A stretch of 64,000 nucleotides of DNA, from positions 3,472,001 to 3,536,000 of the forward strand of contig OZ024759.1 of the NCBI GenBank assembly GCA_964016885.1. Direction: 5' to 3'. Position numbers and translations under genes: made by a program. The notes beneath the pieces are model-generated. The model searched no databases. It worked only from the letters and a program-made list of their open reading frames with translations, and was not told where the DNA came from. Position 1 is the stretch's first letter, and each line of letters opens with the position of its first letter. Source of the stretch: Eledone cirrhosa (lineage: Eukaryota). This document shows, piece by piece, positions 2,345-60,949 of the stretch.

Positions 2345-2491
2345 ATGTATGCTTTTGTGTTTTTTTGTGTGTGTGTTTGCATGTGTAGTTTTATTTTATT
2401 TTTCCTTTCCTTCTTCCTTCTCCAGCCTCACTTTCATATAGATTGCATTTTTGTTTTTTAAAATCCAAATTCAATAAACAAACCAGGATTT

Positions 2492-3422: not shown

Positions 3423-3455
<33 letters not shown>

Positions 3456-3761
3456 TACAGGTACACATACATATATGCACGCATCAGTTTAGCGGACGCT
3501 TATTATAACGCCGCTTTGTTCGTTTGTCAACAAACTGAACAGCCTGAATTTATGCCATACGGTGTTAAGGTAACCACGTCACCTTTTTGTTCAACACTGA
3601 CACAGGAACGATGTACTAGTTTCAAGCTTGTTAGCTATCATCAGCACCGTTTACCTATCTGCCAGATAGTTGAACGTTCGAAAGTATATTCTTTCCTTAT
3701 CAAAATTAACGGCTGAGCAGCCTAATTTGCATATTGAGTGAGTTAAATCGGTCAGGCATCA

Positions 3762-4400: not shown

Positions 4401-5327
4401 GTGAGAGAATTCTGGCCGGATATGGCCGGTTTAAATGCTAAAGGTTAAAGTGGTCAGAGCCTTTGTTAATTACTTCCTGTCTCCTATTAATAATGTGTTG
4501 AGCTTCCGTTGTACAGAGATCACAGCCACATGAAAAAGGATTCGCATAAATATGGAAATGCATTTGTGAGAATACGCCAAGAAAACGAGTACTGTACCTG
4601 GTTCTGTTTTAGCCTCCTTATGATTTAGCATAATTTCAGATAGCGCTGTGCTTCTTCTTCTGTCTATTCAGTTAAATGAGTGCTGATTGTACCATTTAAC
4701 ATACATACATATGTACATGGTGGCTGCCAACTCGTTTTCGAGTACGGCCACTACTTTATATCCATGTAGGAGAACCCCTACCGATGCGCTGAACAATAGT
4801 GACTTTTTAGTCCAGCCAGCGACTTGAAAATTCCTGTACAGAGAGATCTCCAGATACAAAGCAATGCCTGTGCCGTGAAGCTTTTATAGTGAGCAAAGGC
4901 ACTGCACAAAGCCAGTCCCACTCTCTTAACTAAGATGATATTTACCAAAAGGAAGAACAAGTCAACATCATTGGATACCATCAGGGTTGCAGGTGTAATA
5001 TTAGAGTTTTCCTTCTCCTAGAATTCTGCCTTGAGAAAGGCTAAGGGGTCATCTCTCCCGGTGATTTTGGATGGCCATTGACACTTAAAAGCTCCGTTGC
5101 CCTTTCACAGGTTTTGTTTTTAGTCCTGCAGGATGTCCAAAGTCACCCTCCTCACCAAGAAACCTTGGTGGGGTTACCATTTCAGTCGCTAACGACCCGA
5201 CCATGAGACAGGTTGTACTGGGATACATGTTACCAGTAGCACCAACTGGTGACCTGACATATGTACATATGTACATATATACATACATACATAACCACTT
5301 TAAACTAAACAATTTTGTACCCTAGAA

Positions 5328-5646
5328 CAGGGGTGTGCAACATATTCCATTGGCGGGCCACTTTTGAACATTGGAACAATTATTAGGGCTATTATTATTT
5401 ATTAAGCACTATTCCGAAGATTCACCACAACTTCTTTCCATAACATGGAACTGGGAAAGTATAACACACATAACCCTATCAGTGAAGCCCTTTAGTATAG
5501 GTCAACTAACAGAAAATTGTATTACGGTTATGAAAAAAATTGTAAATAGGCCTACAAGGTAAACATTTAAAATGGTCACCGCGGGCCACTTTGACTGGTC
5601 TGGCAGGGCGGATTGTGGCCCACGGGCCGCCTGCTACATGCCCCTG
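5328..5646. mobile_element. hAT (Charlie-type) MITE
   Basis: Termini CAGGGGTGTGCA...TACATGCCCCTG with a perfect 8-bp TSD CCCTAGAA (5320-5327 and 5647-5654). Confidence 0.85.
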
Positions 5647-20900: not shown

Positions 20901-23900
20901 AAAGTTACATACTGTTTCGCTTCCTTCATCTTTTCTCTCAGAGTTGTAATGTCCAGTTGCTTGCAGGTTTGTGTTTTCCGGACCGCCTGTGCAAAGGAGG
21001 CACCAGTAGTGGGTTCGCTTTGTTTGGTGTTATCGTTATTTTTTCCTTGGTTGGTGTTGTGACTATTGCTGTTATTGTCGTTGTTGTTTTTGTCTGCGTT
21101 TATGTGACTTTCTGGGTTTTCACCCATTTTTACAAATTTTTCTTTTAATTCCGTGTTCCATGTTTCTTTTGCAGAAGTGAGGAGGGAAGACTTAGAGCCT
21201 TGTGGTTCTAGCTTCTCTGTATCACCTTTCTTAGGGGGCGTGGCTTTCACGTTAGGATGAGATGTGAAAATTCCGTCCATTTCTATTAGTTTGCACACGT
21301 CAACACACGTCTCTCGTATACGAGATGTTATGTGAGATAAAGCCTTTACTGTGAAAATACAATAGTATATATAGAGTAATGTAAATGTTATGTGAGATAT
21401 TATGTGAGGTAAAGCCTTTACTGTGACAATACAATAGTATATATAGAGTAATGTAAATGTTACGTGAGATATTATGTGAGGTAAAGCCTTTACCACAAAA
21501 ATACAATAGTATATATAGAGTAATGTAAATGTTATGTGAGATATTATGTGAGGTAAAGCCTTTACTGTGAAAATACAATAGTATATATAGAGTAATGTAA
21601 ATGTTATGTGAGATATTATGTGAGGTAAAGCCTCTACTGTGAAAATACAATAGTATATAAAGAGTAATGTAAATGTTATGTGAGATATTATGTGAAGTAA
21701 AGCCTTTACTGTGACAATACAATAGTATATATAGAGTAATGTAAATGTTATGTGAGGTATCATGTGAGGAAAAGCCTCTACTGTGACAATACAATAGTAT
21801 ATATAGAGTCATGTAAATGTTATGTGAGATATTATGTGAGGTAATGCCTTTACCACAAAAATACAATAATATATATAGAGTAATGTAAATGTTGTATGAG
21901 GCATTATGTGAGGTAAAGCCTTTACTGTGAAAATACAATAGTATATATAGAGTCATGTAAATGTTATGTGAGATATTATGTGAGGTAAAGCCTTTACTAC
22001 AAAAATACAATAGTATATATAGAGTAATGTAAATGTTACGTGAGATATTACGTGAGGTAAAGCCTTTACTGTGAAAATACAATAGTATATATAGAGTCAT
22101 GTAAATGTTATATGAGGTATTATGTGAGGTAAAGCCTCTACTGTGAAAATACAATAGTATATATAGAGTCATGTAAATGTTATATGAGGTATTATGTGAG
22201 GTAAAGCCTCTACTGTGACAATACAATAGTATATATAGAATAATGTAAATGTTATGTGAGGTATTATTTGAGGTAAAGCCTTTACTGTGACAATACAATA
22301 GTATATATAGAGTAATGTAAATGTTATGTGAGATATTATGTGAGGTAAAGCCTTTACTGTGACAATACAATAGTATATATAGAGTAATGTAAATGTTATG
22401 TGAGATATTATGTGAGGTAAAGCCTTTACTGTGAAAATACAATAGTATATATAGAGTAATGTAAATGCTAAAGAGTTAAAACATAACTTAACAAATGTTC
22501 TTACATAAAGTTAGGATAGAAGGTTTTAAGATAGTTATAAACATTTTATCATAAACTAAGATGCGTGGCTCTGTGTTTAGAGTATTCGCCTCACAATCGT
22601 AAGGTCATGAGTTTGTTTACCAGCGGAGTGTTGTGTCCTTGAGCAAGACACTTTATTTCATATTGTTCCAGTTCACTCAGCTGGCAAAAATGAGTTGTAC
22701 CTGTAATTCAAAGGGTCAGCCTTGTCACACTCTGTGACATGCTGAATCTCCCCGAGAGCTATGTTAACCCTTTAGCATTTAAACTGGCCATATCCGGCCA
22801 GAATTCTCTCACCTCTTTCTGTTCAAACCAGCCATAACTGGCTGCTCATACTTATGTGAAGGTATTGTTCTCAAAATATATAATATCAAAATCTCATAGA
22901 TTTGATATTATGTGAGATAATTATGTAAGATAAAGCCTTTACCACAAAAATGTAATATTAGATATGGAGTAATGTAAATGCTAAAGGGCTAAGGGTATGC
23001 ATGTCTGTGGAATACTAAGCCACTTGCACGTTAATTTCATGAGCAGGCTGTTCCAGTAATAGTGTCAACTGGAACACTCATTGTTGTAACCGACAGTGCC
23101 AGTTCAAGTTCAAGGGGTAGAGTTGATTCAGACAGTTTGGTATCCAAACAGTTAAACAATTAGGAACATGTGTGTTTCATGCCATTTATAAATAAATGTC
23201 TTTAGGTGACATTCTAGAACAGAAGTTCTCAAACTTTTTGGGGCCATCGCCCCCCACAGGGCCTTGTAATACCCTCTAAAACGCCACACCTATTTCCAGA
23301 GAGACCTACCTACAAGCAAATTGTAAATAATATAAAAAAAAGGAACGATGGACTTTCGTCAAATCGGACCGAGGAAACAATGTTTCCGTTGGTCTTTCCA
23401 ATTGCTAATACTATCTATCGGTCGCAACTCCAGGTAGAAGGAGCAACGTGAAATAAAGTAAATAATATATAATACATAAAATGGTTGATATATAATAAAT
23501 AATTCTTTCTACTTTTGGCACAAGGCCAGCAATTACTCCAGTATATTACTGGTACTGTATTTTATCGACCAAGTAAAGGTGAAAGCAAAATTAACCTAGG
23601 AGGGATTTAAAGTCAGATCATAAGGGGCCGTAACTCTATGCTGCAAAGCATGGTGTCCTACCTTCTATAATATATCGACAGTCGATCAACTTCCATCAAA
23701 TTGGACCACGGAATCAATGCTTCCATTGGTCTTTCCAATTGCTTGGCAGTTCTTTACCCAGCTGTCATCCACCATGCGCATCACATGTCCATACCAACAC
23801 AGTCTTCTCTCCCACACACTACAACTTATCCCTCTTATACACAGTTTCTCTCTCAACTCGTCTATACTTTGTCGTTCACATACATTGACATCACACATGC

Positions 23901-26548: not shown

Positions 26549-28815
26549 ACGGAGGAAATGTGGTAAGGAACCAGGTGGACCATAATGCACCAAAGTACTC
26601 AATACTTAGGGTAGTAGAGTGGGTAATAGGAACGAGTAGGACCCCGACGGCTGAGCTCAAGCCGTTTCGACGGCTAATTCTGGACTAAATGAACATTTTT
26701 ATCCTGGTATTTGAATAGCCGAGCTTCTAAAGGGGTAATTCCATATATGGTAAAAGTGATTGTCACGAGGATTGGTCAAAAGTTTGTTGTTGAGACATAA
26801 TAATTCTATGATGGCAATTTGTGGAGGGAAGGGGTAGCTGAACCTGCCAGTAGGAGAAAGAGGGAGAGGAGGTGGAGGAGACCCAGTCATGCGTTGATAG
26901 TGCCGACTACAGCTGGGCATGAGGTCAAAGAGGATACTAGGGAGGGGGAGGGGGAGGAAGTCGAAACAATTAGTAAAACAATTAGTAAAACAATATGGGG
27001 TAAATATATAGAAAAATACCGAGAGTGTTAAAAAGCAATTAAATGTAAAAAAAAAAAAAATAAACAATTTCTGGTTACTACGACCTAAGTCTCTCACTGG
27101 CACTGCTAGGCTAAAGAAAGGTTTACTAGGTGGGACGGAATTATAATGAGACCCTTTTAAGAGGTATAAGTAATAAACCAAGTATATCTTACGGTGACGG
27201 GTCAACAAGTGAGGGGTCAAAATACTAAAGAAACTACCACGAAATAATAAATAAAGGTTTCTACCCCAGGCACAAGGCCAGCAACCACCCAGTGCAAAAA
27301 GTAAACTAATACGAAATAATAATTCAGAGTCCTGAAAAAGAATACTAATACTATCTCTAAGGGTGCCGCCACGATACAAAAGTTCTAGTGCAAACTACAT
27401 AAAAGCTCGTACGAAGTAAAATTTGATACGGAAAATTAGTTCAGAATCCCCCCCCCCCCCCCAAAAAAAAATACTGATATATGAGAAATTAAAGCAAAGA
27501 TACCACTAAGAAATATAGAAAGCACGGAAAAGGGGCAGCGGTCGGATAAGGAGGCAAGTATCCGGGGTCTAACACATCTGCTATAAAAAGCGGAGTCGGC
27601 CAAATCTATCATAGAATAGGGGTAGGGGGTGGGGGTAGTGAAACTACAAAGGACCGAGGGGCTGCCTCGGGTGGGCGAGAAAATGAAAAGGACGACAACA
27701 AAGAAAGAGGACTGGGGTGGAAGGACTAGGGAGGGATGGGGGGAAGAAGGAAATATAGAGGAAGCGATAAAAAGATATAAAAGATCTTACGTCTACCGTA
27801 CCTTTGCAAGCAGGGGTTACCCATTACAAAATCGGCAAGTGGGGTGTTATAGCCCTAGTCTCCCCTCCCCGGGTCATTATGGGGTTTGAGGGCGAGGTAA
27901 GTCCTACGCAATCTATGTTTACATGCAGTAACCAGTCCATCTTTCATTTGTAAAGTTTCCTCCGAGCATAAATTGCACGGACGGCGTCCTCCCGTGTAAG
28001 AGTTGGCTCTGGACAGTAAGCTCCAAGTGAGATCATAGGTAATGTTGTTATCCTTGAGGTCCCATATGTGGCCCGAAAGTGTAGTGGCGTGACGCCGGGC
28101 CGGGTTTCGGAAGGTATTCCTGTGTTGGTATAGCCGGGTCTTGCGGTTAATCCTATATAAGCTTTGTTGGAGGTGTCCGTCCTCACGTTGCACTGGTAGA
28201 TCACATTACGATCTCTGCATCTGTTGTCGAGGGGGAAAATGGATCCATCAGGACAGTTGCACCTCCTGGTCAGCTCTCCACTGCTATTTAGGTTATTTTT
28301 TCCATAGGGGTTGAGTTTTTTGTTGTTAGAGGAGACGATATTTTGTGCAAAGTTTGGTGTGGTGCTGTAAGAGAGTTTAATGGTATTTTTGTTAATTACG
28401 TTGTGGTAGCGGTGTTGTAGTGGGAAGTGTTTTTCAATGAGCCTAAAGAAGATTTTCCCGATAGGAGTTGTCACCTCGGCGTTGTGGGGAGGATTGAACT
28501 GGTTACTGCATGTAAACACAGATTGCGTAGGACTTACCTCGCCCTAAAACCCCATAATGACCCGTGGGGTAGACTAGGGCTATAACACCCCACTTGCCGA
28601 TTTTGTAATGGGTAACCCCTGCTTGCAAAGGTAGACGTAAGATCTTTTATATCTTTTTATCGCTTCCTCTATATTTCCTTCTTCTCCCCATCCCTCCCTA
28701 GTCCTTCCACCCCAGTCCTCTTTCTTTGTCGTCGTCCTTTTCATTTTCTCGCCCACCCGAGGCAGCCCCTCGGTCCTTTGTAGCTTCAGTAGCCCCACCC
28801 CCTTCCCCTATTCTA
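26545..28815 (-). mobile_element. 5'-truncated Penelope-like element with GIY-YIG endonuclease remnant and inverted terminal copy
   Basis: ORFs 27944-28519 and 27855-28193 read FNPP...NTIKLSYS...NVIYQC...YIGLT...RLYQH...TTLSGHIWDLK...CNLCSEE. Inverted repeat 27611-27936 vs 28498-28815. Confidence 0.85.
26641..26736 (-). ncRNA. Variant/degenerate hammerhead in the Penelope 3' region (family 3)
   Basis: Reverse complement reads acccc-tttagaag-ct cggcta...tagccg t-CGAAA-cggcttgagctcagcc-GTC-ggggt. All three stems and GUC are present, but the CUGANGA box is altered. Confidence 0.55.
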
Positions 28816-28984
28816 TATATATATATATATATGTGTGGAAAAAATGAAACAAAATTTCATTTCTCACTCTTAGTGCGGCTGTTACTTAAATATAAAGTAT
28901 GTATACATACATACATATATGTATACAGACGTACAGTAGTATATATACATGCACACATATATATATGTACGTATGGCACTCAAT

Positions 28985-37330: not shown

Positions 37331-37714
37331 ATATCGTAAGGAAGGGACATCTTAAGGCTTTAATTATGAACAAATTTTTATATTTTCATTCCATTATTGT
37401 TTTACTGATTGTGTTTTGCTCTAATCTACTACAAACCCTTCATAGATTGGTCTCTCTGTAACATGGTTGTTTCTGGAACGTATCATGGCTTAGTGGTTAA
37501 AGCATTGGGCTTGCAATCTAAAGGTTGTGAGTTCGATTCTCGGACAGGGTGTTGTGTTGTGTCCTTGAGCAAGACACTTTATTTCACGTTACTCCAGTTT
37601 ACTCAGCTGTAGAAATGAGTTGTGATGTCACTGGTGCCAAGCTATATCAGTCATAACCTTTCTCTTGGACATATATATAGTGTATATATACTGTACACAG
37701 TGTATATATATCTA

Positions 37715-42979: not shown

Positions 42980-44614
42980 ACAGATAAAAGAACAACAACA
43001 AAAAAACAAAACAAAGATTACCAGGTAACTTTTACTTTTCCTTACCTCATCTTATTGTCCATTTTGCATTGTTTAGCCTTCTATCTCTTTCAACGTTATA
43101 TTTTATATAGAATGCTTCAAACAAACTACAACATTTAATTATATATCATCATCATCATCTTCAATTAACGTCCATCTTCCACACTAGCATGTGTTAGACG
43201 GGTCCCATTTAGAGGCAAGTGTGGGCTGGATGCTTTTTTGCTGTCTTCTACACGTTCAGTGTGGGTGAGATATATATATATGTGTATGTATATATCATCA
43301 CCATTTAGCGTCCATTTTTCCATTCTTGCATGGGTTAGACGGGTCATTCACACCAGGAGGCAAGTCTGGCCAGGGTTGGCCATGTGTCGCACCTTGCTCA
43401 GGTGAGGTCTGTAAATTTGGTGGGGTATTTTACAGCTGGATTCCCTTCCTAACATCAACCATGTTTACAGTGTGGAACTGGATGGCTCTGTTATGAGGAG
43501 GGACAGGCCAGTTGGCTGCACTGAACTCATCTCACAGTGGAACTATAATTTTGGGGGGGCCTGGTACTGGGTGGCACCATTGAGGAGGGGGTAGCCAGTC
43601 AGCTGCTCCAAACTCATCTCACGAGGTTACCACAGTTTTGGGGCCCCTGTACTAGGGGCTATAGTGATGGTGTAGCTAGTTTATATGAATAAGTAAATCT
43701 GACGCAGGTATATTTCTACAGTTTACCAATGTACCGTACTTACTGGCGCCAATGACGACCAATTTTTGAAAAAAAATAATAATCAACCTTCGGCCTCCAG
43801 GACATATGGTAGATATTTTGGACTTATATTAGGGAAAAAGTAATGTCTTTGATGCTAGGAAATATGGTGAAAATTTAAAATTTCCACTGTTAAATCTATC
43901 CCTGCATTTTAAGTATTCTCTATTATCTCATACTGTTACTTTCTTATAAGTCCTATAAGAATGCAATTTTTGCTAAACTACCATAGAGCAGACCTCTGAA
44001 GTGATAGAAGGATATAATTTATAGAGCATGCTGGAATACCACTGCTTACATTGGAGAGAATTTCTCTGGACAGAATGTTGATATCTACAGTTTACCAATA
44101 TAGAAATATAACATTTCCACTGTTAAATCTATCTCTGCTTCTAAAGTATTCTCTATTATCTCATACTGTTTCTTTCTTATTTCAGAATATCAGATGACAT
44201 TGGGATAAATTATTATTTTCAATCTTGGATACATCATCTCTATTTATCATCATTTGAAGACTAAAACCTTCTAAACAGAACTTATATAACACTGTTTATA
44301 TAAATCTATAGTTCAATTACTGTGAAATATTTCCTCAAAACTGAGTTTATTTTCTTCACTATAAGATGGTTTTGTATTTTAACTAAACTTGGATGAAACA
44401 GAAGTTTGTATTATCTTCAGATATTAACTGAAATCACAGTTGAGGGAAATATAGAAGAATATTTTATAAGAAATATAATATAAAAAATATTACAAGAAAA
44501 ACATCTGTATATTCTGTTGAAGAAGAAATCATTATGCCAAATAAATTGACAAAGAAGATTAAATGTGTAACACAATCTAAAGTGTTTAGTATTGCTGGTG
44601 AGATGACAAAGGTT

Positions 44615-45290
44615 AGAGAAGAGAAGCCATATCACTGTGATATCTGTGATAAATCATTCTCTCAAAGTGGTACCTTAACTACTCACAAACGTATACATAC
44701 AGGAGACAAGCCATATCACTGTGATATCTGTGGTATATCATTCTCTGGGAAAAGTAGCCTAACTACTCACAAATGTATACATCATCATCATCATCATCAT
44801 TTTACGTCCGCTTTTCCCTGCTTGCAGAAGAGAAATCATAATGCATTGACATCAGTGATAAATCCTTCTCTCAAATTTGTGAATTAATGAGAATACAAAT
44901 ACATATCATTGTAACATCTTAGGGAAATCCTTCTCTTTGAATGTTACATTAACTATACACACACATATACATACAGCTGGGAAGCCATATCACTTTGATA
45001 TATTTGGTACATCATTCTCTAAATGTTGTGGCTTCACTAGACACCAACATCTACAGGAGAGGAACCATATCACTGTGATGTCTGTGATAAATCCTTCTCT
45101 AAATGTTGTGGTTTCACTAGACACCAACATATACATACAGGAGAGGAACCATATCACTGTGATGTCTGTGATAAATCCTTCTCTAAATGTTGTGGTTTAA
45201 TTAGACACTAACATATACAGGAGAGGAACTATATCACTGTGATGTCTGTGGTACATCTTTCTCTTATAAAGATTACTTAATGCAACACAA
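44615..45290 (+). pseudogene. C2H2 zinc-finger array pseudogene
   Basis: [54 protein letters not shown], then a (CAT)n antisense retroelement tail and further frameshifted ccatatcactgtgat fingers. Confidence 0.85.
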
Positions 45291-46103: not shown

Positions 46104-47345
46104 CATCATCATCATCATCATCACCGTTTTACGTCCGTTCTTCCACGCTAGCATGGGTTAGACGGGTTGTCCTGTTGTGGGCAGTGTCTGGTCGGCTGAC
46201 CATGCCTTGCTCATACAGGAACTGATCTGGCTTGATTTCTACAGCTGGATGCCCTTCCTAACACCAACCTCATTTACAGTGAGTGCTGGGTGCTTTTTCG
46301 TGGCGCCTACACGTCCACTTTACAGTGTGGGCTGGGTGCTTTTTTGCCGTGGCACCTCCACGACCACCTTGCGGTGGGGGGGGGGGGGGCATATTGTTTA
46401 TATGCTTCAGCATGTACCCATGGGAGGTCGGGTACCCTGTATTACTGCGTGACGCCAGAAGTCACGGTCGTGTGTCATTGACTTTGAGAGGTGTAGTTGG
46501 GTAAGGTCGGCTTTTATCACCTCATCCCAAGTAATTTTGGGTCTCCCCACTCCGCGGTTTCCATCAACTTCTAGTGCTCTGCACCTTTTTATGCAGCTGT
46601 CATCCTTCATACGCATCACATGTCCATACCAGCGTAACCGCCTCTCCTGCACGCAGCATTTGATTCCTCTTATGCTCAGTCTCTCTCTCAATTCATTTAT
46701 GCTTTGTCGTTCACGTATATTACTGTTACACATCCATCGGAGCATGCAGGCTTCGTTTCTCTCTAATCTACGTAAGTCTTCCACCTTCAGCGCCCAGGTC
46801 TCACTACCATGCAACATCGCTGTTCGGATACACGCATCATACAGTCTGCCTTTCATTCTGAGGGAGAAGCCTTTTGCAGCTAGCAGTGGTAGTAGTTCCC
46901 TAAACTTCTTCCATCCCGTTCTTACCCTAGTTATTGTACTTTCTGAGCACCCACCTCCGTTGCTAATTCGGTCACCTAGGTAGCAGAAGCTGTCTACTGT
47001 TTCTACAGGGCCCTCCCAGAGATTGGTGGTACTTGTTTCCTGTGGCTGTTTGCTTGCTGTTTCAGCACAGCTGCTGCATGTGAATCCTACATTCTTAATT
47101 AAGCTTCCTGAGATCCCGCTACATCTCTTGTGTACCCATTGTTTGCATTTGGGGCAAAGAATGGAGTTCCTACCTACACCTTTCCTACATACTGAGCAAG
47201 GCCATTTCCCTGAGGGGATCTGGGTTCTGTTTTCTCGTCTACTTATAAGGACCTTAGTCTTTGTCATGTTGACTTTGAGGCCCTTTCTCTCTAGTCCCTG
47301 CTTCCAGGTTTGGAATTTATTCTCTAGTTCTACCATAGATTCAGT
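46104..47345 (-). mobile_element. 5'-truncated, relatively young RTE LINE (its 3' part is also present at ~50606-50985)
   Basis: Uninterrupted ~310-codon ORF with the Cys-rich insert and RLRWYGHV...GRPKITW, followed by the 3' UTR and (ATG)n tail. Confidence 0.9.
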
Positions 47346-49309
47346 TGTTTCGCCAAATTGATGTGTGCATATAAACAGCAATGCTGCATTGCAGTGAGGA
47401 CCCCAGAAGATTGGATAGAAATGAAGCTTGAATTCTCCGATGGATGTGTAATATTAATATACATGAAGGGGAAAGTGTTAATAACCTGAGAGAGAACCTG
47501 GGCATGAGAGGGAAAAGATACAGTATGCAGGAGAGGAGATTGCTGTGGTATGGACATGTGATGTGTATGAAGGTAGAGATGCTGTATAAAAGGTTGACCA
47601 CTTGAAATTGATGGAAGAGGAAGACCTAGGAATGCTTGGGATGTGGAGGTAAAAACTGACCTGACACCATTGTACCTCTCAAAGGTGATGACACAGGATT
47701 GAAATCTCTGGCGTTATACAGTACTGCAGGAGACCTGCATTCCCATGTGCACGGGTTGACACAACATTTAGTGGTTTGAAGTATGCTCCAATTTTCCTCC
47801 CCTTCACATCTTAACACTCCACCCCCTTACCAGCTAAGTACACCACCCTGACCTACCTCTCCAATCCCCACTCTACATACACACAACCCCACCCCCACTT
47901 TCACATCTGATACACCTCTCTTGACCAACCCATGTATACAAGTAAGGAAAGCTTAACATTATCTCCTCCAATGCTGCTGAAATGGCTAAAAGCCCTCAGG
48001 CAACCCTGTAAGGTGGTCATGCAAGTGTCATGACAAAAGAGCACCAAGTCCTCTCTGTTAGGTAACATGACAAAAGAACACCTAACCCTCCCTGCAAGGT
48101 AGTCATGCTGATGACATGACAAATAAGCACCCAGTCCACCCTGTGAGGTAGACATGACAGAAGGCCCCTAGCCCACTCTGTAAAGTAGTCATGCTAGTGG
48201 CAAGACTGAAGGGACCCGAAGCACCCTTCAAAGTGATCAAATTGGTGACATGACTTGACACCATTTTTTAGTTTACTTCTAAAATATCTCATTTTTATTT
48301 TACTTCTAAAATATCTCATATATTTAAAAATTACTTATTTTAAAAAATTATTATTTATTTCTTAAAAAAATTACTTTTTAAAGATTATTTAAAATTTTTT
48401 TATATTTTTTAATATTTTTTAAATATTTTTAAACATTTTAAATAGTTTAAGTACTTTTTAAGTATTTTATTTTGTTAAAAGGGTTTTTTGAGTATCTTCT
48501 GAGATTAAAAAAATTTTTTTTTTTATTTTTCCAGAAATGTTTTCCAGAACTTTTAATATTTTAATATTTTAAATATTTTTTAATTATTTAATATTAGAGT
48601 TATAACCAATAACTAATTCTGGCTATATATATCTTTCAACATTTATATCTTCGTCAAAATGGTCTCTTACTAACTAATAAATAAACAAAGCTGGGTTTTT
48701 CAGTATCTTCCTAATTTAAAACATTAAAAACATATAAATAATCTTATTAACTCAGTTAATTTAATTACTTACACTAAATATAAACCAGTATCCCTCATAA
48801 CTTATTAAAACAATTATCTATAACATGATATAGCCATTTATCCACTCATATATCTATTCTTCTATCTATTGATTCTCCTATTTTCTACTTTATATCTATT
48901 TATTTTCAATTTATTATTCAATGTCTTTATATATATTTATTTTTTCTATATATCTATTTTTCTATATACTTATAATAGTAAATATTATATTGTATTATAT
49001 TAGAATTCTAACAATAATTAGTAAATATACGTAACATTAATATAAACGTAATACTTATTTACGTTACATGAGTTCATCCTCTATAAATGTCTTTCTTCTC
49101 TCTATCTCTCTATCTATCTCATAACAGTAATTTTTTTCTCTCTCTTTCTTCTCTTTCTTCCCTATCTTTCCCCAGCGTAATTTAAATAAACGGTTGTTTT
49201 TTCAATTTTTCATACATTCATTTGCATATTCACACATAACTTTGAATTACCCCTAATAAGTTTCCCCTATCCAGCGAATTTCCGACCGTTATTTATAAAA
49301 CAAATTTTG

Positions 49310-49374
49310 TATTTTATCTGATGAAAGAGCACCAAGATTGACTTGGTCGCCCTTGAAATATATATAATAAAATA
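49310..49374 (+). ncRNA. Type I minimal hammerhead ribozyme (family 4)
   Basis: tattttat-CTGATGA-aagagcaccaag attga cttggtcgccctt-GAAA-tatata-TA-ataaaata, with an 8-bp perfect stem I, palindromic stem III and AUA triplet. Confidence 0.8.
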
Positions 49375-50473
49375 AATATGCAAAAGTTCTATTTAAATTG
49401 TTGGGATACAACAAGCAAATATGTTTATAACTGATATAAAGCACTCAACAAGTATTTGGAATAAACATACGATATTAACAATCCTTTTGTATTTTATGTA
49501 CTCAATTATACGATGTACTATATTGATTTATACTTCTCTCTATATGTGAGTATATATGTATATGTGTATATTGACATACATGTACATGTGTTCTATGCAT
49601 TTTTATGAATATATGTCTGTCTGTATGTATGCATGCGTGACGCGAATCTACCAATTTGCCGAGGATGCACACACATGTATATATATGTATATGTAAGAAT
49701 TGTGTGTGTACATGTACATGTATACCCATACAATTTGATTGCAGATAGACATAACTAACAGCCATAAATGCATAACAGCTAATCTTATATATTTATATAT
49801 ATATATTAAAAAAAATTTGTTATAAAAAATATTTTATTTAATAACACAAAGGATGGATAACATTAAATTAAAAATTCATTTATGCTTTGTATGTATATAT
49901 TATATACGTGGTTAGATATGGTGTGTATTTTGTGAGTGTGTGTATATATATATATTTATGTGTATTTTTGCGTGTGTGTACGTGTTATATGATATGTAGT
50001 TCTCTAGCAATATATAGATTTCTTAATGTTTAGATTCCAATTTTTAATATATTGATCTCAATTTTTAAACTAAATATCTAATCATAGTTAAACAATGATT
50101 AATTTCTCATATTATGTATGTATATTCCATTCATGATTATTAATATTTCTAATTTTATTTATTCATTTCATCTCAATTGTTAAGTTAACTTAATATGACA
50201 TGACTTAATGTGTTCATTCTTTCCCCCTCTCTCTATCTCTATATTTTTGTCTCTGTCTGGTGTTTTGATATATCTCTCTCGTTTTTCTCTCCTTTTTCTT
50301 TCTTTCTTTCTCCCTTTTCTCTCTCTCCGTCTTTTTCCTTATCTGTAACACTACGACTTATTTTAAAAATACTAATATAAGTAAACAACTCCACTATCCC
50401 TGAGTCTTCCAAAAGTAACGGTTGCATTTTGTAAGGGTATGTCAATATTTATTTATAAAACTGTTATATATTG

Positions 50474-50538
50474 TATTTTGTCTGATGAAAGCATACCATA
50501 ATTTAACATGGTATCCTTGAAATATGTATAATGAAATA
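50474..50538 (+). ncRNA. Type I minimal hammerhead ribozyme (family 4, second copy)
   Basis: tattttgt-CTGATGA-aagcataccat aatttaac atggtatcctt-GAAA-tatgta-TA-atgaaata; the stem II sequence differs from the first copy but still pairs. Confidence 0.75.
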
Positions 50539-51248
50539 GATATGGTTTTATAAATATAGTTTCCATTTGTTAATATCGTATAATAAAATAAATATAGTTT
50601 TATAAATCATCATCACCGTTTTACGTCCGTTCTTCCATGCTAGCATGGGTTAGACGGGTTGTCCTGTTGTGGGCAGTGTCTGGTCGGCTGACCATGCCTT
50701 GCTCATACAGGAACTGATTTTGGCTTTTCTATAGCCGGATGCCCTTCCTAACACCAACCTCATTTACAGTGAGTGTTGCGTGCTTTTTTCCGTGGCACCT
50801 ATGCGTCCACTTTACAGTGTGGGCTGGGTGCTTTTTTTGTGTGGCACCTCCACGACCACTTTGCAGTGGGAGGGTGTGGGGGCATATTGTCTATATGCTT
50901 CAGCTTGAACCCATGGGAGGTCGGGTACTCTGTATTACTGCGTGATGCCAGAGGTCACGGTCGTGTGTCATCGCCTTTGAGAGGTGTGTGTTTATATATA
51001 TATATATATACAAATAAATTATCGAGAATCGGAATCTCGGCCCATGAAATAATGAAACACAATCAAAGTGCTCAATAGTTTGGATAAACCAGAGCTATAA
51101 CTAACGTTTAAATACCAACACACTGAGATAATGCTTAAAATCATTCGCACAGCCGAAAAAAACGACCAAGAAAATTCGGGTCAGACAAATAATAAATATA
51201 TATATATATATTTTTTCTTTTAACATATATGTGTATATAAAATATATA

Positions 51249-51323: not shown

Positions 51324-51779
51324 TAATATACATATCATTAAACGTATCTCCTACATGTGTATAAATAAATATACATGTATTTAATTAACAATTTTCTGTA
51401 GAATCTGTTAAACATGGAAGAAAATGTGGAGACTAAATAAAATTAACGTGTTGGTCACATTAACTTAATAATATAACTATATATTAATGAAATATGTCGA
51501 AATAAAAGTTGTAATTGTGACAAAAATATTGAGTTGGTAGTTTATTATGACCAAGACTACTCATTATCCCACTACATATTTTGTATACTATATATATACT
51601 GTATATATACAGTTTATATATATATACACACACACATATAATTGCGTATTCACACATTATCTTAGTAATGAAATAATAATTTTAGTAAATTGTTCACCAG
51701 GCAATTCCTTCCTCAATCATTACATAGATGTGTGTATGCAATAAATATTTTGTATTGTGTGTCTATTTAGAAATATGTA

Positions 51780-54700
51780 TGTGTAGATGTGTGTGTGTGT
51801 GTAACACAGTAGATGTGTGTGTATGTAACACAATAGATGTGTGTGTATGTAACCCAGTAGATGTGTGTGTATGTAACTCAGCAGATGTGTGTGTGTAACA
51901 CAGTAGATGTGTGTGTATGTAACTCAGCAGATGTGTGTGTATGTAACACAGTAGATGTGTGTGTGTGTGTAACACAGTATATGTATGTGTATGTAACACA
52001 CTAGATGTGTGTGTATATATAACACAGTAGATGTGTATGTAACACAGTAGATGTGTATATATAACACAGTAGATGTGTGTATATGTAACACAGTAGATGT
52101 GTATATATAACACAGTAGATGTGTATGTAACACAGATATGTATATATAACACAGTAGATGTGTGTGTATGTAACACAGATGTGTGTGTATGTAACAAGTA
52201 GATGTGTGTATGTAACACAGTAGATGTGTATATATAACATAGTAGATGTGTGTGTATGTAACACAGATGTGTGTATGTAACTCAGCAGATGTGTGTGTGT
52301 AACACAGTAGATGTGTGTGTATGTAACTCAGCAGATGTGTGTGTATGTAACACAGTAGATGTGTGTGTATGTAACACAGTAGATGTGTGTGTAACACAGT
52401 ATGTGTATGTAACACACTAGATGTATGTGTATATATAACACAGTAGATGTGTATGTAACACAGTAGATGTGTATATATAACACAGTAGATGTGTGTATAT
52501 GTAACACAGTAGATGTGTATATATAACACAGTAGATGTGTATGTAACACAGTAGATGTGTATATATAACACAGTAGATGTGTGTATGTAACACAGTAGAT
52601 GTTTATGTAACACAGTAGATGTGTATATATACCATAGTAGATGTGTGTGTATGTAACACAGATGTGTGTATGTAACTCAGCTGATGTGTGTGTAACACAG
52701 TAGATGTGTGTGTATGTAACTCAGCAGATGTGTGTGTAACTCAGCAGATGTATGTGTATGTAACACAGTAGATGTGTGTGTGTGTAACACAGTATGTGTA
52801 TGTAACACACTAGATATGTGTGTATATATAACACAGTAGATGTGTATGTAACACAGTAGATGTGTATATATAACACAGTAGATGTGTGTATATGTAACAC
52901 AGTAGATGTGTATATATAACACAGATGTGTATGTAACACAGTAGATGTGTATATATAACACAGTAGATGTGTGTGTATGTAACAAGTAGATGTGTGTATG
53001 TAACACAGTAGATGTGTATGTGTAACACAGTAGATGTGTATATATAACACAGTAGATGTGTGTGTATGTAACACAGATGTGTGTGTATGTAACAAGTAGA
53101 TGTGTGTATGTAACACAGCAGATGTGTGTGTGTAACACAGTAGATGTGTGTGTATGTAACTCAGCAGATGTGTGTGTATGTAACAAGTAGATGTGTGTAT
53201 GTAACACTGTAGATGTGTATGTAACACAGTAGATGTGTATATATAACATAGTAGATGTGTGTGTATGTAACACAGATGTGTGTATGTAACTCAGCAGATG
53301 TGTGTGTGTAACACAGTAGATGTGTGTGTATGTAACTCAGCAGATGTGTGTGTATGTAACACAGATGTGTGTGTGTGTGTGTGTAACACAGTATGTGTAT
53401 GTAACACACTAGATGTGTGTGTATATATAACACAGTAGATGTGTGTGTATATATAACACAGTAGATGTGTGTGTGTGTGTAACACAGTATGTGTATGTAA
53501 CACACTAGATGTGTGTGTATATATAACACAGTAGATGTGTATGTAACACAGTAGATGTGTATATATAACACAGTAGATGTGTGTATATATAACACAGTAG
53601 ATGTGTATGTAACACAGTAGATGTGTATATATAACACAGTAGATGTGTGTATATGTAACACAGTAGATGTGTATATATAACACAGTAGATGTGTATGTAA
53701 CACAGTAGATGTGTATATATAACACAGTAGATGTGTGTGTATGTAACACAGATGTGTGTGTATGTAACAAGTAGATGTGTGTATATGTAACACAGTAGAT
53801 GTGTATGTAACACAGTAGATGTGTATATATACCATAGTAGATGTGTGTGTATGTAACACAGATGTGTGTATGTAACTCAGCAGATGTGTGTGTGTAACAC
53901 AGTAGATGTGTGTGTATGTAACTCAGCAGATGTGTGTGTATGTAACTCAGCAGATGTGTGTGTATGTAACACAGTAGATGTGTGTGTGTGTGTAACACAG
54001 TATGTGTATGTAACACACTAGATGTGTGTGTATATATAACACAGTAGATGTGTATGTAACACAGTAGATGTGTATATATAACACAGTAGATGTGTGTATA
54101 TGTAACACAGTAGATGTGTATATATAACACAGTAGATGTGTATGTAACACAGTAGATGTGTATATATAACACAGTAGATGTGTGTGTATGTAACACAGAT
54201 GTGTGTGTATGTAACAAGTAGATGTGTGTATGTAACACAGTAGATGTGTATGTGTAACACAGTAGATGTGTATATATAACACAGTAGATGTGTGTGTATG
54301 TAACACAGATGTGTGTGTATGTAACAAGTAGATGTGTGTATGTAACACAGCAGATGTGTGTGTGTAACACAGTAGATGTGTGTGTATGTAACACAGCAGA
54401 TTGTGTGTATGTAACAAGTAGATGTGCGTATGTAACACAGTAGATGTGTATGTAACACAGTAGATGTGTATATATAACATAGTAGATGTGTGTGTATGTA
54501 ACACAGATGTGTGTATGTAACTCAGCAGATGTGTGTGTGTAACACAGTAGATGTGTGTGTATGTAACTCAGCAGATGTGTGTGTATGTAACACAGTAGAT
54601 GTGTGTGTGTGTGTAACACAGTATGTGTATGTAACACACTAGATGTGTGTGTATATATAACACAGTAGATGTGTATGTAACACAGTAGATGTGTATATAT

Positions 54701-57700
54701 AACATAGTAGATGTGTGTGTATGTAACACAGATGTGTGTATGTAACTCAGCAGATGTGTGTATGTAACACAGTAGATGTGTGTGTATGTAACTCAGCAGA
54801 TGTGTGTGTATGTAACACAGTAGATGTGTGTGTGTGTGTAACACAGTATGTGTATGTAACACACTAGATGTGTGTGTATATATATAACACAGTAGATGTG
54901 TATGTAACACAGTAGATGTGTATATATAACACATTAGATGTGTGTATATGTAACACAGTAGATGTGTATGTAACACAGATATGTATATATAACACAGTAG
55001 ATGTGTGTGTATGTAACACAGATGTGTGTGTATGTAACAAGTAGATGTGTGTATGTAACACAGTAGATGTGTATATATAACATAGTAGATGTGTGTGTAT
55101 GTAACACAGATGTGTGTATGTAACTCAGCAGATGTGTGTGTGTAACACAGTAGATGTGTGTGTATGTAACTCAGCAGATGTGTGTGTATGTAACACAGTA
55201 GATGTGTGTGTATGTAACACAGTAGATGTGTGTGTAACACAGTATATGTATGTAACACACTAGATGTATGTGTATATATAACACAGTAGATGTGTATGTA
55301 ACACAGTAGATGTGTATATATAACACAGTAGATGTGTGTATATGTAACACAGTAGATGTGTATATATAACACAGTAGATGTGTATGTAACACAGTAGATG
55401 TGTATATATAACACAGTAAATGTGTGTATGTAACACAGTAGATGTGTATGTAACACAGTAGATGTGTATATATACCATAGTAGATGTGTGTGTATGTAAC
55501 ACAGATGTGTGTATGTAACTCAGCAGATGTGTGTGTGTAACACAGTAGATGTGTGTGTATGTAACTCAGCAGATGTGTGTGTATGTAACTCAGCAGATGT
55601 ATGTGTATGTAACACAGTAGATGTGTGTGTGTGTAACACAGTATGTGTATGTAACACACTAGATATGTGTGTATATATAACACAGTAGATGTGTATGTAA
55701 CACAGTAGATGTGTATATATAACACAGTAGATGTGTGTATATGTAACACAGTAGATGTGTATATATATAACACAGTAGATGTGTATGTAACACAGTAGAT
55801 GTGTATATATAACACAGTAGATCTGTGTGTATGTAACACAGATGTGTGTGTATGTAACAAGTAGATGTGTGTATGTAACACAGTAGATGTGTATGTGTAA
55901 CACAGTAGATGTGTATATATAACACAGTAGATGTGTGTGTATGTAACAAGTAGATGTGTGTATGTAACACAGCAGATGTGTGTGTGTAACACAGTAGATG
56001 TGTGTGTATGTAACACAGCAGATTGTGTGTATGTAACAAGTAGATGTGCGTATGTAACACAGTAGATGTGTATGTAACACAGTAGATGTGTATATATAAC
56101 ATAGTAGATGTGTGTGTATGTAACACAGATGTGTGTATGTAACTCAGCAGATGTGTGTGTGTAACACAGTAGATGTGTGTGTATGTAACTCAGCAGATGT
56201 GTGTGTATGTAACACAGTAGATGTGTGTGTGTGTGTAACACAGTATGTGTATGTAACACACTAGATGTGTGTGTATATATAACACAGTAGATGTGTGTGT
56301 ATATATAACACAGTAGATGTGTGTGTGTGTGTAACACAGTATGTGTATGTAACACACTAGATGTGTGTGTATATATAACACAGTAGATGTGTATATAACA
56401 CAGTAGATGTGTATATATAACACAGTAGATGTGTGTATATGTAACACAGTAGATGTGTGTATGTAACACAGTAGATGTGTATGTAACACAGTAGATGTGT
56501 ATATATAACATAGTAGATGTGTGTGTATGTAACACAGATGTGTGTATGTAACTCAGCAGATGTGTGTATGTAACACAGTAGATGTGTGTGTATGTAACTC
56601 AGCAGATGTGTGTGTATGTAACACAGTAGATGTGTGTGTGTGTGTAACACAGTATGTGTATGTAACACTAGATGTGTGTGTATATATAACACAGTAGATG
56701 TGTATGTAACACAGTAGATGTGTATATATAACACATTAGATGTGTGTATATGTAACACAGTAGATGTGTATGTAACACAGATATGTATATATAACACAGT
56801 AGATGTGTGTGTATGTAACACAGATGTGTGTGTATGTAACAAGTAGATGTGTGTATGTAACACAGTAGATGTGTATATATAACATAGTAGATGTGTGTGT
56901 ATGTAACACAGATGTGTGTATGTAACTCAGCAGATGTGTGTGTGTAACACAGTAGATGTGTGTGTATGTAACTCAGCAGATGTGTGTGTATGTAACACAG
57001 TAGATGTGTGTGTATGTAACACAGTAGATGTGTGTGTAACACAGTATATGTATGTAACACACTAGATGTATGTGTATATATAACACAGTAGATGTGTATG
57101 TAACACAGTAGATGTGTATATATAACACAGTAGATGTGTGTATATGTAACACAGTAGATGTGTATATATAACACAGTAGATGTGTATGTAACACAGTAGA
57201 TGTGTATATATAACACAGTAGATGTGTGTATGTAACACAGTAGATGTGTATGTAACACAGTAGATGTGTATATTTACCATAGTAGATGTGTGTGTATGTA
57301 ACACAGATGTGTGTATGTAACTCAGCAGATGTGTGTGTGTAACACAGTAGATGTGTGTGTATGTAACTCAGCAGATGTGTGTGTATGTAACTCAGCAGAT
57401 GTATGTGTATGTAACACAGTAGATGTGTGTGTGTGTAACACAGTATGTGTATGTAACACACTAGATATGTGTGTATATATAACACAGTAGATGTGTATGT
57501 AACACAGTAGATGTGTGTATATAACACAGTAGATGTGTGTATATGTAACACAGTAGATGTGTATATATAACACAGTAGATGTGTATGTAACACAGTAGAT
57601 GTGTATATATAACACAGTAGATGTGTGTGTATGTAACACAGATGTGTGTGTATGTAACACAGTAGATGTGTATGTGTAACACAGTAGATGTGTATATATA

Positions 57701-60095
57701 ACACAGTAGATGTGTGTGTATGTAACACAGATGTGTGTGTATGTAACAAGTAGATGTGTGTATGTAACACAGCAGATGTGTGTGTGTAACACAGTAGATG
57801 TGTGTGTATGTAACTCAGCAGATGTGTGTGTATGTAACAAGTAGATGTGTGTATGTAACACTGTAGATGTGTATGTAACACAGTAGATGTGTATATATAA
57901 CATAGTAGATGTGTGTGTATGTAACACAGATATGTGTATGTAACTCAGCAGATGTGTGTGTGTAACACAGTAGATGTGTGTGTATGTAACTCAGCAGATG
58001 TGTGTGTATGTAACACAGTAGATGTGTGTGTGTGTGTGTGTAACACAGTATGTGTATGTAACACACTAGATGTGTGTGTATATATAACACAGTAGATGTG
58101 TGTGTATATATAACACAGTAGATGTGTGTGTGTATGTAACACAGTATGTGTATGTAACACACTAGATGTGTGTGTATATATAACACAGTAGATGTGTATG
58201 TAACACAGTAGATGTGTATATATAACACAGTAGATGTGTGTATATGTAACACAGTAGATGTGTATATATAACACAGTAGATGTGTATGTAACACAGTAGA
58301 TGTGTATATATAACACAGTAGATGTGTGTGTATGTAACACAGATGTGTGTGTATGTAACAAGTAGATGTGTGTATGTAACACAGTAGATGTGTATGTAAC
58401 ACAGTAGATGTGTATATATACCATAGTAGATGTGTGTGTATGTAACACAGATGTGTGTATGTAACTCAGCAGATGTGTGTGTGTAACACAGTAGATGTGT
58501 GTGTATGTAACTCAGCAGATGTGTGTGTATGTAACTCAGCAGATGTGTGTGTATGTAACACAGTAGATGTGTGTGTGTGTGTAACACAGTATGTGTATGT
58601 AAAACACTAGATGTGTGTGTATATATAACACAGTAGATGTGTATGTAACACAGTAGATGTGTATATATAACACAGTAGATGTGTGTATATGTAACACAGT
58701 AGATGTGTATATATAACACAGTAGATGTGTATGTAACACAGTAGATGTGTATATATAACACAGTAGATGTGTGTGTATGTAACACAGATGTGTGTGTATG
58801 TAACAAGTAGATGTGTGTATGTAACACAGTAGATGTGTATGTGTAACACAGTAGATGTGTATATATAACACAGTAGATGTGTGTGTATGTAACACATATG
58901 TGTGTGTATGTAACAAGTAGATGTGTGTATGTAACACAGCAGATGTGTGTGTGTAACACAGTAGATGTGTGTGTATGTAACTCAGCAGATGTGTGTGTAT
59001 GTAACAAGTAGATGTGTGTATGTAACACAGTAGATGTGTATGTAACACAGTAGATGTGTATATATAACATAGTAGATGTGTGTGTATGTAACACAGATGT
59101 GTGTATGTAACTCAGCAGATGTGTGTGTGTAACACAGTAGATGTGTGTGTATGTAACTCAGCAGATGTGTGTGTATGTAACACAGTAGATGTGTGTGTGT
59201 GTGTAACACAGTATGTGTATGTAACACACTAGATGTGTGTGTATATATAACACAGTAGATGTGTGTGTATATATAACACAGTAGATGTGTGTGTGTGTGT
59301 AACACAGTATGTGTATGTAACACACTAGATGTGTGTGTATATATAACACAGTAGATGTGTATGTAACACAGTAGATGTGTATATATAACACAGTAGATGT
59401 GTGTATATGTAACACAGTAGATGTGTGTATGTAACACAGTAGATGTGTGTATGTAACACAGTAGATGTGTATGTAACACAGTAGATGTGTATATATAACA
59501 TAGTAGATGTGTGTGTATGTAACACAGATGTGTGTATGTAACTCAGCAGATGTGTGTATGTAACACAGTAGATGTGTGTGTATGTAACTCAGCAGATGTG
59601 TGTGTATGTAACACAGTAGATGTGTGTGTGTGTGTAACACAGTATGTGTATGTAACACACTAGATGTGTGTGTATATATAACACAGTAGATGTGTATGTA
59701 ACACAGTAGATGTGTATATATAACACATTAGATGTGTGTATATGTAACACAGTAGATGTGTATATATAACACAGTAGATGTGTGTATGTAACACAGTAGA
59801 TGTGTATGTAACACAGTAGATGTGTATATATAACACAGTAGATGTGTGTATATATAACATAGTAGATGTGTGTGTATGTAACACAGTAGATGTGTGTATA
59901 TATAACACAGTAGATGTGTGTGTATGTAACACAGTAGATGTGTGTATGTAACAGTATATGTATGTGTATGTAACACACTAGATGTGTGTGTATATGTAAC
60001 ACAGTAGATCTGTGTGTATGTAACACAGTAGATCTGTGTGTATGTAATACAGTACATGTATGTATGTAACACAGTAGATGTGTGTGTATGTAACT
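51780..60095. repeat. 8.3-kb complex satellite: TAACACAGTAGA-type cores separated by variable (TG)n/(TA)n, with higher-order structure
   Basis: Hundreds of ~19-30 bp units with recurrent core variants (AACTCAGCAGA, AACAAGTAGA, AACACACTAGA, AACATAGTAGA, ACCATAGTAGA). Confidence 0.95.
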
Positions 60096-60949
60096 AAAGT
60101 GTAACGTACGTTACGAATGGACAACTAAAAGATTTTAACTTGTTTTTTAACAATTCATGGTGGAAAAAAATTTTAATTGTCTCAATTCAGACCATAAAGG
60201 GCCGCAACACACGGTGTTTGACGCACTTACCGGCTACATAGCCTCGGAGTCTATTTTACTGAGACCAGCTACATATCTTCTTCCTAAAATCTTCCAACAT
60301 AATTTTATACAAGAACCACATGTTAAGTTACTAATAAAATAATTAATAATTAAAAACTTCAGTAAATCCTTCAAATGATATCTCAGTAATGAAATAATTA
60401 ATAATTGTTATAAATACCTCAAAATTCCTCATTAATTAAACCCAAGACAGGTAAAAACTCCAGAGTCTTTCAATCGGACATGAAACAAATTAATTTCTAA
60501 TGAAAGAAGATTGTAAAGTCAGCCAAGGGAGATCACTCTCAGCGACTTATCGTAATTCTTGTTCCTGAATTAATCCGGATGAAAATATTCCGGTGTATTT
60601 TGTGTGGAGGAAACCGGATTTAGGCGGTGATAGCACGCAATACATGAACGTATGGTTCGTGAGTTCGAATCCCATACCGGGTGGTCTGTACGTCGGGGCC
60701 TTGAACAAGACACTTTATTTCTCATTGTTTTATTTCACCCAGCTGGCAAAAATAATAAGTTGTAATAATTATAGTGGAAATGTTGTTACATAGAATTGTC
60801 ACACTGAATCTCCCTGAGAAGAATGTCAACGGTATACGTGTCAATGAAATACTCAGACACATTATAATATAAGATGGGTTCTACATGTATTTCAAAGGGA
60901 AGCCATGCCATACGTCTTGCTGAATCTCCCTGAGAACTACGTATATACT

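What the first reader, a model, noticed from the sequence alone, without database searches (positions are those of the whole stretch)
49090..50600. Second tandem hammerhead pair, ~1.16 kb apart, with different but still pairing stem II
Seen: two CTGATGA...GAAA-ta(t/g)ta-TA motifs with predicted cuts at 49366 and 50530 (1164 nt apart). Each is preceded by a CT-rich tract and atttataaaac. The stem II sequences differ (accaag/cttggt vs ataccat/atggtat) but both pair. The spacer is non-coding and rich in AT and microsatellite. Inference: these are diverged tandem monomers of a second retrozyme-like family, and structure kept despite sequence change suggests function. The spacing is similar to the locus at 1.2-2.5 kb although the sequences are unrelated. 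The palindromic minimal stem III fits the dimeric cleavage known for minimal metazoan hammerheads.
Basis: partly seen in the sequence, partly recalled or inferred. Interest (0 to 1): 0.75.

Follow-up and report, generated by a model that had tools for sequence, protein, structure and literature searches.

The report
Two cousin hammerheads, Penelope-type tail ends
Two intact, related hammerhead self-cutting RNA motifs lie 1.16 kb apart in this animal DNA and share only a ~110-base ribozyme module, so they are likely the tail ends of two sister lineages of Penelope-type jumping genes, a known pairing, rather than decayed copies of one tandem repeat.

Summary
Both motifs are complete type I hammerheads (cores 49318, 50482; predicted cuts after 49366 and 50530, 1164 nt apart). 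A structure descriptor finds 4 such cores in the window against a mean of 0.01 in 200 shuffles. All 20 homologous base pairs are kept in both, 3 by double changes. The 'diverged tandem monomers' reading fails. Homology is confined to the ~110-nt ribozyme module (78%). The upstream 'monomer' aligns no better than shuffles, and neutral decay of identical copies never gave the covariation (0 of 200,000 in each of six settings). The ribozymes therefore diverged under selection, probably before arriving here. Best reading: 3' ends (CT-rich UTR, hammerhead, ~30-nt tail) of two sister Penelope-type retroelement lineages lying head to tail in TA/TG-rich DNA; no RT or endonuclease remnant lies nearby. 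Main rival: one composite ~1.2-kb non-autonomous element whose two different hammerheads cut as a heterodimer. The two-strand fold favours this in 2 of 3 flank choices. No homologue was found outside the window's own and near species, and copy number, expression and cleavage are untested. New member of a known kind.

The parts
49085..49175 (+). CT-rich tract 1, likely 3'UTR-type sequence ending ~140 nt before the HHR1 core
49289..49398 (+). HHR1 module: distal and proximal stem I 5' strand (49289-49317), core 49318-49324, stem II 49325-49354, GAAA 49355-49358, palindromic stem III to U16.1 49365, H17 49366, 3' stem I strand and ~30-nt tail
   Evidence: nhmmer 49290-49397
49367..50530 (+). 1164-nt stretch between the predicted cuts; non-coding, 26% GC; the RNA that double cleavage would release
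49488..49997 (.). degenerate TA/TG microsatellite arrays inside the spacer, a possible insertion target
   Evidence: TRF
50213..50345 (+). CT-rich tract 2, ending ~137 nt before the HHR2 core
50449..50558 (+). HHR2 module: core 50482-50488, stem II 50489-50518, GAAA 50519-50522, U16.1 50529, H17 50530, stem I extended by a 12-bp distal helix
50579..50608 (+). second copy of the post-cut tail; its first part matches the HHR1 tail better than the HHR2 tail
50606..50987 (-). flanking 3' fragment of a repeated LINE (RTE-type label recalled), 92% identical to 46114-46494; bounds the finding on the right, not part of it
50993..51010 (.). (TA)n run just beyond the LINE fragment; possible original right-hand target of the HHR2 end
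   Evidence: inference

Best explanation
The two motifs are intact type I hammerheads sharing only a ~110-nt module, and they are likely the 3' ends (CT-rich UTR, ribozyme, ~30-nt tail) of two sister lineages of Penelope-like (PLE-type) retroelements that likely came to lie head to tail in TA/TG-rich DNA. Shown: the anatomy, the covariation, the limits of homology, and the lack of coding remnants. Inferred: in the parent elements the ribozyme cut tandem precursor RNA after the AUA triplet, working as a double hammerhead in which the palindromic stem III strands of two copies form an 8-bp helix. The unit RNA was then copied by a PLE reverse transcriptase and endonuclease and inserted, mostly 5'-truncated. 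The compensatory changes arose while the lineages were propagating separately. Any transcript crossing both copies could still be cut, but the 1164-nt spacer need not be a functional unit.
For: Homology is confined to the ribozyme module. 20 of 20 pairs are kept, with 3 double and 2 wobble changes; neutral decay of identical copies gave at least 3 double changes in 0 of 200,000 runs in each of six settings. The order pyrimidine tract, HHR, short tail matches PLE 3' ends: HHRs sit in pLTRs and mostly occur as single motifs, probably from truncated PLEs, with high within-genome variability and compensatory changes (PMC4209133); PLE insertions often carry a 30-40 bp tail, and Hydra families insert into (TA)n (PMC8557442). 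The same window holds a PLE remnant with a pyrimidine-rich 3' region and an inverted 5' copy (27611-28816), whose protein matches the Hydra-clade alignment by eye. A second HHR family with an inverted copy lies at 0.5-2.6 kb. (TA)n follows the HHR2 tail once the LINE fragment is set aside.
Against: No RT or GIY-YIG remnant lies near the pair (tblastn), so the parent element is not identified and PLE membership is not shown. No inverted copy was found, and I saw no target-site duplication by eye. No (TA)n directly follows the HHR1 tail; microsatellite starts about 100-170 nt later. The only two family copies in 64 kb lie 1.16 kb apart on one strand, which is unlikely (roughly 2% by my estimate) unless insertion is targeted. 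The base of stem II is A-U, not the G-C typical of PLE HHRs, and the 8-nt palindrome differs from the 9-10-nt ones of the listed Hydra families.
Confidence: 0.5

Rival explanations
1. The whole region is one copy of a composite non-autonomous PLE parasite (a long retrozyme). Its two different hammerheads travel together, cut as a heterodimer and release a 1164-nt RNA that can be circularised and re-inserted.
For: Same strand, close spacing, and nearly the same CT-tract offset (143 and 137 nt). The HHR1 x HHR2 two-strand MFE is the double-hammerhead fold with 12- and 32-nt flanks (-28.1 and -43.8 kcal/mol), while the homodimer MFEs are not. Cross stem I is 8 of 8 both ways, and a circle would re-form an 8-of-8 stem I at the junction. 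Double changes fall only in the intramolecular stem II (3 of 10 pairs against 0 of 10). Run X4, only 88 million letters, holds 0.53 of the stretch's words although the ribozyme parts are 14% of its 31-mers, as a multi-copy or transcribed unit would.
Against: With 20-nt flanks the heterodimer fold has P<=0.05. In the whole 1.29-kb transcript the inter-copy stem III has P~0.01 and costs 3.2 kcal/mol above the MFE. The 3-versus-0 split is not significant (Fisher p=0.21). No second copy of the spacer is in the window. 1164 nt exceeds reported animal retrozyme monomers (170-400 nt, PMC7229834; 51-972 bp in bioRxiv 2026.07.22.740005, whose TRF cap was 1000).
Confidence: 0.3
2. A host-retained double-ribozyme cassette: an old PLE insertion whose two ribozymes have been kept by selection at this locus while the flanks decayed, for example to excise a non-coding RNA or to terminate transcripts.
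For: Everything outside the ribozyme modules has lost similarity, as long purifying selection on the ribozymes alone would give. A second organism label holds 0.43 of the words, so the stretch is shared with a close relative.
Against: A share of 0.43 against 0.79 implies only about 2% divergence (my estimate), too recent to show retention. Lineage-level selection in a mobile family explains the same pattern more simply and is documented (PMC4209133). HHR1's distal stem I is partly broken.
Confidence: 0.08
3. One reading: two tandem monomers of one retrozyme family that were identical at insertion and diverged in place.
For: Shared ribozyme module, shared order of CT tract then ribozyme, and weak CT-tract similarity (13-17 of 500 shuffles as good).
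Against: The upstream unit does not align and there is no long period. No third ribozyme lies ~1.16 kb upstream, even with one core mismatch or by nhmmer. Neutral decay does not produce the covariation.
Confidence: 0.05
4. Chance motifs in AT-rich, microsatellite-rich DNA.
For: No Rfam hammerhead hit; stem I has P<=0.05 in monomer ensembles; whole-module fold z-scores are only -1.0 and -2.7.
Against: 4 real cores against a mean of 0.01 in shuffles; mutual similarity E=1e-14; 20 of 20 pairs kept with covariation; 0 of 96 metagenome matches to the bare pattern pass the structure filter.
Confidence: 0.02

Closest known systems
Type I hammerheads in pLTRs/3' ends of Penelope-like elements (Cervera & de la Pena 2014, PMC4209133; Craig et al. 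2021, PMC8557442, incl. Hydra-1_Obim of Octopus bimaculoides)
   Same: Type I topology, long helix II, short palindromic helix III suited to dimer cleavage, high variability with compensatory changes, mostly solo motifs from truncated elements, short tail, TA-rich targets.
   Different: No RT-EN ORF attached; the two ends are not identical pLTRs; A-U instead of G-C at the base of stem II with no extra nucleotide after A9; 8-nt stem III palindrome instead of the 9-10-nt Hydra type; by eye a different sequence from the Hydra-1_Obim ribozyme.
Animal non-LTR retrozymes (Cervera & de la Pena 2020, PMC7229834; Li, Clavereau & Pollet 2026, bioRxiv 10.64898/2026.07.22.740005)
   Same: Non-coding, low GC, type I HHRs in direct orientation; weak helix III with palindromic tetraloop as in axolotl, where dimers cleave better; proposed PLE origin.
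   Different: Not a tandem repeat (only the ribozyme module is repeated); 1164 nt against 170-400 nt (51-972 bp in the preprint); the two ribozymes differ by compensatory changes; no circRNA evidence.
min-HHRs of metazoan PLEs (PMC4209133)
   Same: Dimer-dependent design with palindromic positions after GAAA.
   Different: min-HHRs lack helix III/loop 3 or keep only a trace; these have 1-2 bp plus a 4-6-nt palindromic loop and an 8-bp helix I rather than 4-5 bp.

Membership tests
Type I hammerhead ribozyme | Catalytic core CUGANGA...GAAA...UH intact | tested here: met
   CTGATGA, GAAA, TA in both
Type I hammerhead ribozyme | Helices I, II, III around the core with helix I open | tested here: met
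   8 bp, 10 bp, 1-2 bp
Type I hammerhead ribozyme | Match to Rfam hammerhead models | tested here: not met
   no hammerhead family at gathering score or E<=10
Type I hammerhead ribozyme | Loop 1-loop 2 tertiary contact | tested here: inconclusive
   both stems are interrupted at matching positions; no canonical contact identified
Type I hammerhead ribozyme | Self-cleavage | not testable with these tools
   needs an assay
Non-LTR retrozyme | Tandem repeat units, each with an HHR | tested here: not met
   no alignment of the units, no TRF period above 59
Non-LTR retrozyme | Monomer of ~170-400 nt (up to 972 bp reported) | tested here: not met
   1164 nt
Non-LTR retrozyme | Non-coding, GC below 45% | tested here: met
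   26% GC, longest frame 96 aa of microsatellite type
Non-LTR retrozyme | Multi-copy and expressed as linear or circular RNA | tested here: inconclusive
   one search gives word shares only; no genome held; no reads laid
Penelope-like element (autonomous) | RT + GIY-YIG ORF between or before the ends | tested here: not met
   tblastn with P0001 and the window's PLE protein, no hit in 47-52 kb at E<=10
Penelope-like element (autonomous) | Near-identical pLTRs or an inverted 5'-truncated copy | tested here: not met
   78% modules with unrelated flanks; no minus-strand copy
Penelope-like element 3' end / derivative | Type I HHR near the 3' end followed by a 30-40 bp tail | tested here: met
   homology ends ~30 nt after the cut; PMC8557442 section 6
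Penelope-like element 3' end / derivative | Insertion into (TA)n | tested here: inconclusive
   (TA)n beyond the LINE fragment after HHR2; none directly after HHR1
min-HHR (Cervera 2014) | No helix III/loop 3, extra nucleotide after position 9, G10.1-C11.1 | tested here: not met
Hydra-clade PLE HHR | 9-10-nt stem III palindrome beginning AC | tested here: not met
   table; this pair has an 8-nt AT palindrome, whereas the 0.5-2.6 kb family fits

The most novel reading that the evidence does not exclude
A mobile ~1.2-kb non-coding element in a cephalopod-like genome, bounded by two different hammerheads that kept cross-compatible stems I and III while their private stem II covaried. They would act as an obligate heterodimer and release a 1164-nt circle: a composite, unusually long retrozyme riding on Penelope-like elements.
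Probability: 0.2. Interest if true: 0.6.

Novelty: new member of a known kind. Interest (0 to 1): 0.3.

Why it matters
As PLE-type tail ends the pair adds one more ribozyme family to a link already in print, including for octopus (Hydra-1_Obim), so a specialist would not be surprised. It is still a neat natural test case: two ribozymes that differ by compensatory changes only in their private helix and can be assayed as singles, homodimers and a heterodimer. If the composite reading held, it would show that animal retrozymes can be over 1 kb and built from two different ribozymes, a class that tandem-repeat-based surveys would miss.

Tried and rejected
No whole genome is held, so there is no genome-wide count or covariation set. 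Run search: no RNA holder listed; rows X6 (0.18) and X7 (0.00) are too small to use; no reads were laid, so depth, RNA ends and back-joints are unknown. DNA pattern scans: viral contigs gave 0 hits and 5 hits, none with the stem III palindrome. Metagenome contigs gave 0 hits and 96 hits, of which 0 of 96 pass stem I>=5 bp with a folded stem II and none has a BLAST match to the unit at E<=1e-3. Seven of those 96 share a motif, but in L001, the one checked, it lies inside a 608-aa ORF on the other strand. Rfam at E<=10 gave 19 matches, all far below gathering score and in the TA/TG microsatellite part of the spacer. Earlier-finding look-ups by sequence, place, relatives and a first word set were empty. 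A third ribozyme ~1.16 kb upstream was not found (next nhmmer hit E=0.038 at ~10 kb, not pursued). The spacer as an intron: four GT[AG]AG donors but no acceptor with 15 or more pyrimidines in the preceding 20 nt inside it, so rejected. 'atttataaaac' as a TATA box: not excluded, but pairing in distal stem I explains it. My first label of the 27.6-28.8 kb element as Neptune was dropped for Hydra. Pfam gave nothing for that protein; the homologue search, longer proteins only, gave one unnamed relative.

Full report
Context. The window is animal DNA rich in LINE fragments, microsatellites and C2H2 zinc-finger pieces. That it is octopus-like is my inference, from recalled repeat types and from the match of its other hammerhead family and its PLE remnant to Hydra-clade data that include Octopus bimaculoides. 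No whole genome is held.

Observation. A type I descriptor (core, stem II at least 3 bp, stem III at least 1 bp, stem I at least 5 bp) finds 4 cores in the window: 49318 and 50482 on +, 2499 on + and 624 on -. Of 200 local shuffles, 198 gave none and 2 gave one; allowing one core mismatch adds nothing. H17 is at 49366 and 50530. Rfam does not recognise either motif. Monomer ensembles keep stem II (P 0.82-0.99) but not stem I (P at most 0.05), and the active monomer fold costs 2.3 and 3.7 kcal/mol above the MFE.

Covariation. I aligned the pairs by coordinate because MAFFT misplaced a bulge. Of 20 homologous pairs, 15 are identical, 2 change on one side to G-U (stem I) and 3 change on both sides (stem II); none is broken. 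The stem III loop change (A to G) becomes a G-U pair in a dimer. I simulated neutral divergence of two identical copies (substitutions only, 10-20%, either copy as ancestor). Both stayed intact in 114-5451 of 200,000 runs, and none of those had three double changes. The ribozymes therefore diverged under selection for structure.

Extent of homology. BLAST finds one mutual match, 49289-49380 with 50449-50544, 78% over 97 columns, E=1e-14. nhmmer extends it to 49290-49397 and 50450-50557 and finds no other convincing copy. The proposed upstream monomer aligns at -52.5 against shuffles of -48.7 +/- 8.7. Segment tests against 500 block shuffles at two block sizes: ribozyme 0 and 0 as good; CT tracts 13 and 17; CT-to-ribozyme segment 97 and 122; downstream segment 111 and 133. 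TRF shows no long period. This is not a tandem repeat.

Surroundings. The spacer is non-coding, and tblastn with two PLE proteins finds nothing near it. After HHR2 the tail is repeated (50527-50556 and 50579-50608). A LINE 3' fragment follows (50606-50987, 92% to 46114-46494), then (TA)n. Elsewhere in the window a PLE remnant has an inverted 5' copy and a pyrimidine-rich region after its stop; I found no intact hammerhead in it. The 0.5-2.6 kb family has an inverted copy that differs from the 2499 copy at one of 108 positions shown, while the 1243 copy differs at about eight by eye and has UG at the cut site. Clusters of unequal relatives thus occur twice in 64 kb, either through repeated insertion into microsatellites or through templates with two ends.

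Dimer model. The stem III strands form 8 bp in the 1x2 and 1x1 combinations (-3.2 kcal/mol) and a weaker duplex in 2x2 (-2.2). The unconstrained two-strand MFE of HHR1 x HHR2 equals the double-hammerhead fold with 12- and 32-nt flanks; the homodimers miss it by 0.2-3.3 kcal/mol. Ensemble probabilities of the cross stems I are 0.42-0.60 at those flanks but 0.04-0.05 at 20 nt, and the inter-copy stem III has P~0.01 in the whole transcript. This is a hint, not a result. The 3-versus-0 split of double changes has p=0.21.

Outside the window. Six of 10 listed runs hold the stretch or part of it, in 2 studies: four under one organism label (0.53-0.79), one under a second (0.43), and one small share. 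The best holders may be the source sample. Only 14% of the 31-mers lie in the ribozyme and tail parts and 4% are low-complexity, so these shares include the spacer. The 0.53 share in an 88-million-letter run is unexplained. No reads were laid, so copy number and expression are open. Four pattern scans of viral and metagenome contigs found no homologue.

Literature. PMC4209133: parts 1-2 of 4 read, plus supplement passages (one supplementary file could not be searched). It reports PLE HHRs, the dimer model, low in vitro activity and mostly single motifs. PMC8557442: passages, sections 6 and 11, supplement search rows and parts 2, 52 and 53. It gives PLE insertion anatomy and an octopus Hydra element with a different hammerhead. 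PMC7229834: passages only, on retrozyme size and dimer cleavage. bioRxiv 10.64898/2026.07.22.740005: parts 1-3 of 5, supplements not seen; it reports retrozymes as PLE derivatives, cleavage in 1 of 9 dimers tested, and 35 species, 31 of them vertebrates. PMC13282606: passages, with 31 recently active Penelope-like families in O. vulgaris and no use of the word ribozyme. Searches for 'hammerhead ribozyme' with 'octopus' (4 of 5 listed) and with 'cephalopod' (2 of 4 listed), and four related searches, showed no description of this family in the listings. Repeat libraries and subscription papers were not searchable.

Verdict. Real, intact hammerheads of the PLE/retrozyme type; not tandem monomers. 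PLE-type 3' ends of two sister lineages 0.5; composite element 0.3; host-retained cassette 0.08; decayed tandem 0.05; chance 0.02. It works like a PLE or retrozyme dimer hammerhead; formal membership of either family is not shown. New member of a known kind, interest 0.3.

Noticed in passing
window 536-2590: Second hammerhead family (cores 624 -, 1243 +, 2499 +) with a 9-nt stem III palindrome like Hydra-clade PLEs; the inverted copy is near-identical to the 2499 copy (PLE-type insertion anatomy); the 1243 copy is more diverged and has UG at the cut site.
   Followed up: partly
window 27611-28816 (-): 5'-truncated, frameshifted Penelope-like element resembling the Hydra clade, with a 187-nt inverted 5' copy (97%) and a pyrimidine-rich 3' region; no intact hammerhead found in it.
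   Followed up: partly
window 50579-50608: Second copy of the post-cut tail whose first part matches HHR1's tail better than HHR2's; possibly the stump of a third end.
   Followed up: partly
window 49305-49317 and 49486-49498: A 13-nt stretch of HHR1's stem I 5' strand recurs ~180 nt downstream; it could compete for the 3' strand or be chance in AT-rich DNA.
   Followed up: no
window 14363-22500: An L1/Tx1-like LINE (label recalled; ORFs at ~16100-21100, minus strand) sits inside an array of 72-bp tandem repeats that continues on both sides, suggesting insertion into that minisatellite.
   Followed up: no
window 37486-37543: Only Rfam gathering-level hit: a partial tRNA-like sequence, probably a SINE head.
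   Followed up: no
window 44444-45250: Broken C2H2 zinc-finger gene interrupted by an ATC-tailed repeat fragment, ~4 kb upstream of the pair on the same strand.
   Followed up: no
window 51740-60100: Long 22-24-bp degenerate minisatellite array starting ~1.1 kb after the pair.
   Followed up: no
L001, L007, L034, L076, L091, L092, L094: Recurrent hammerhead-core-like string in metagenome contigs; in L001 it lies inside a 608-aa ORF on the other strand, and none passes the helix filter, so likely coding coincidence.
   Followed up: yes
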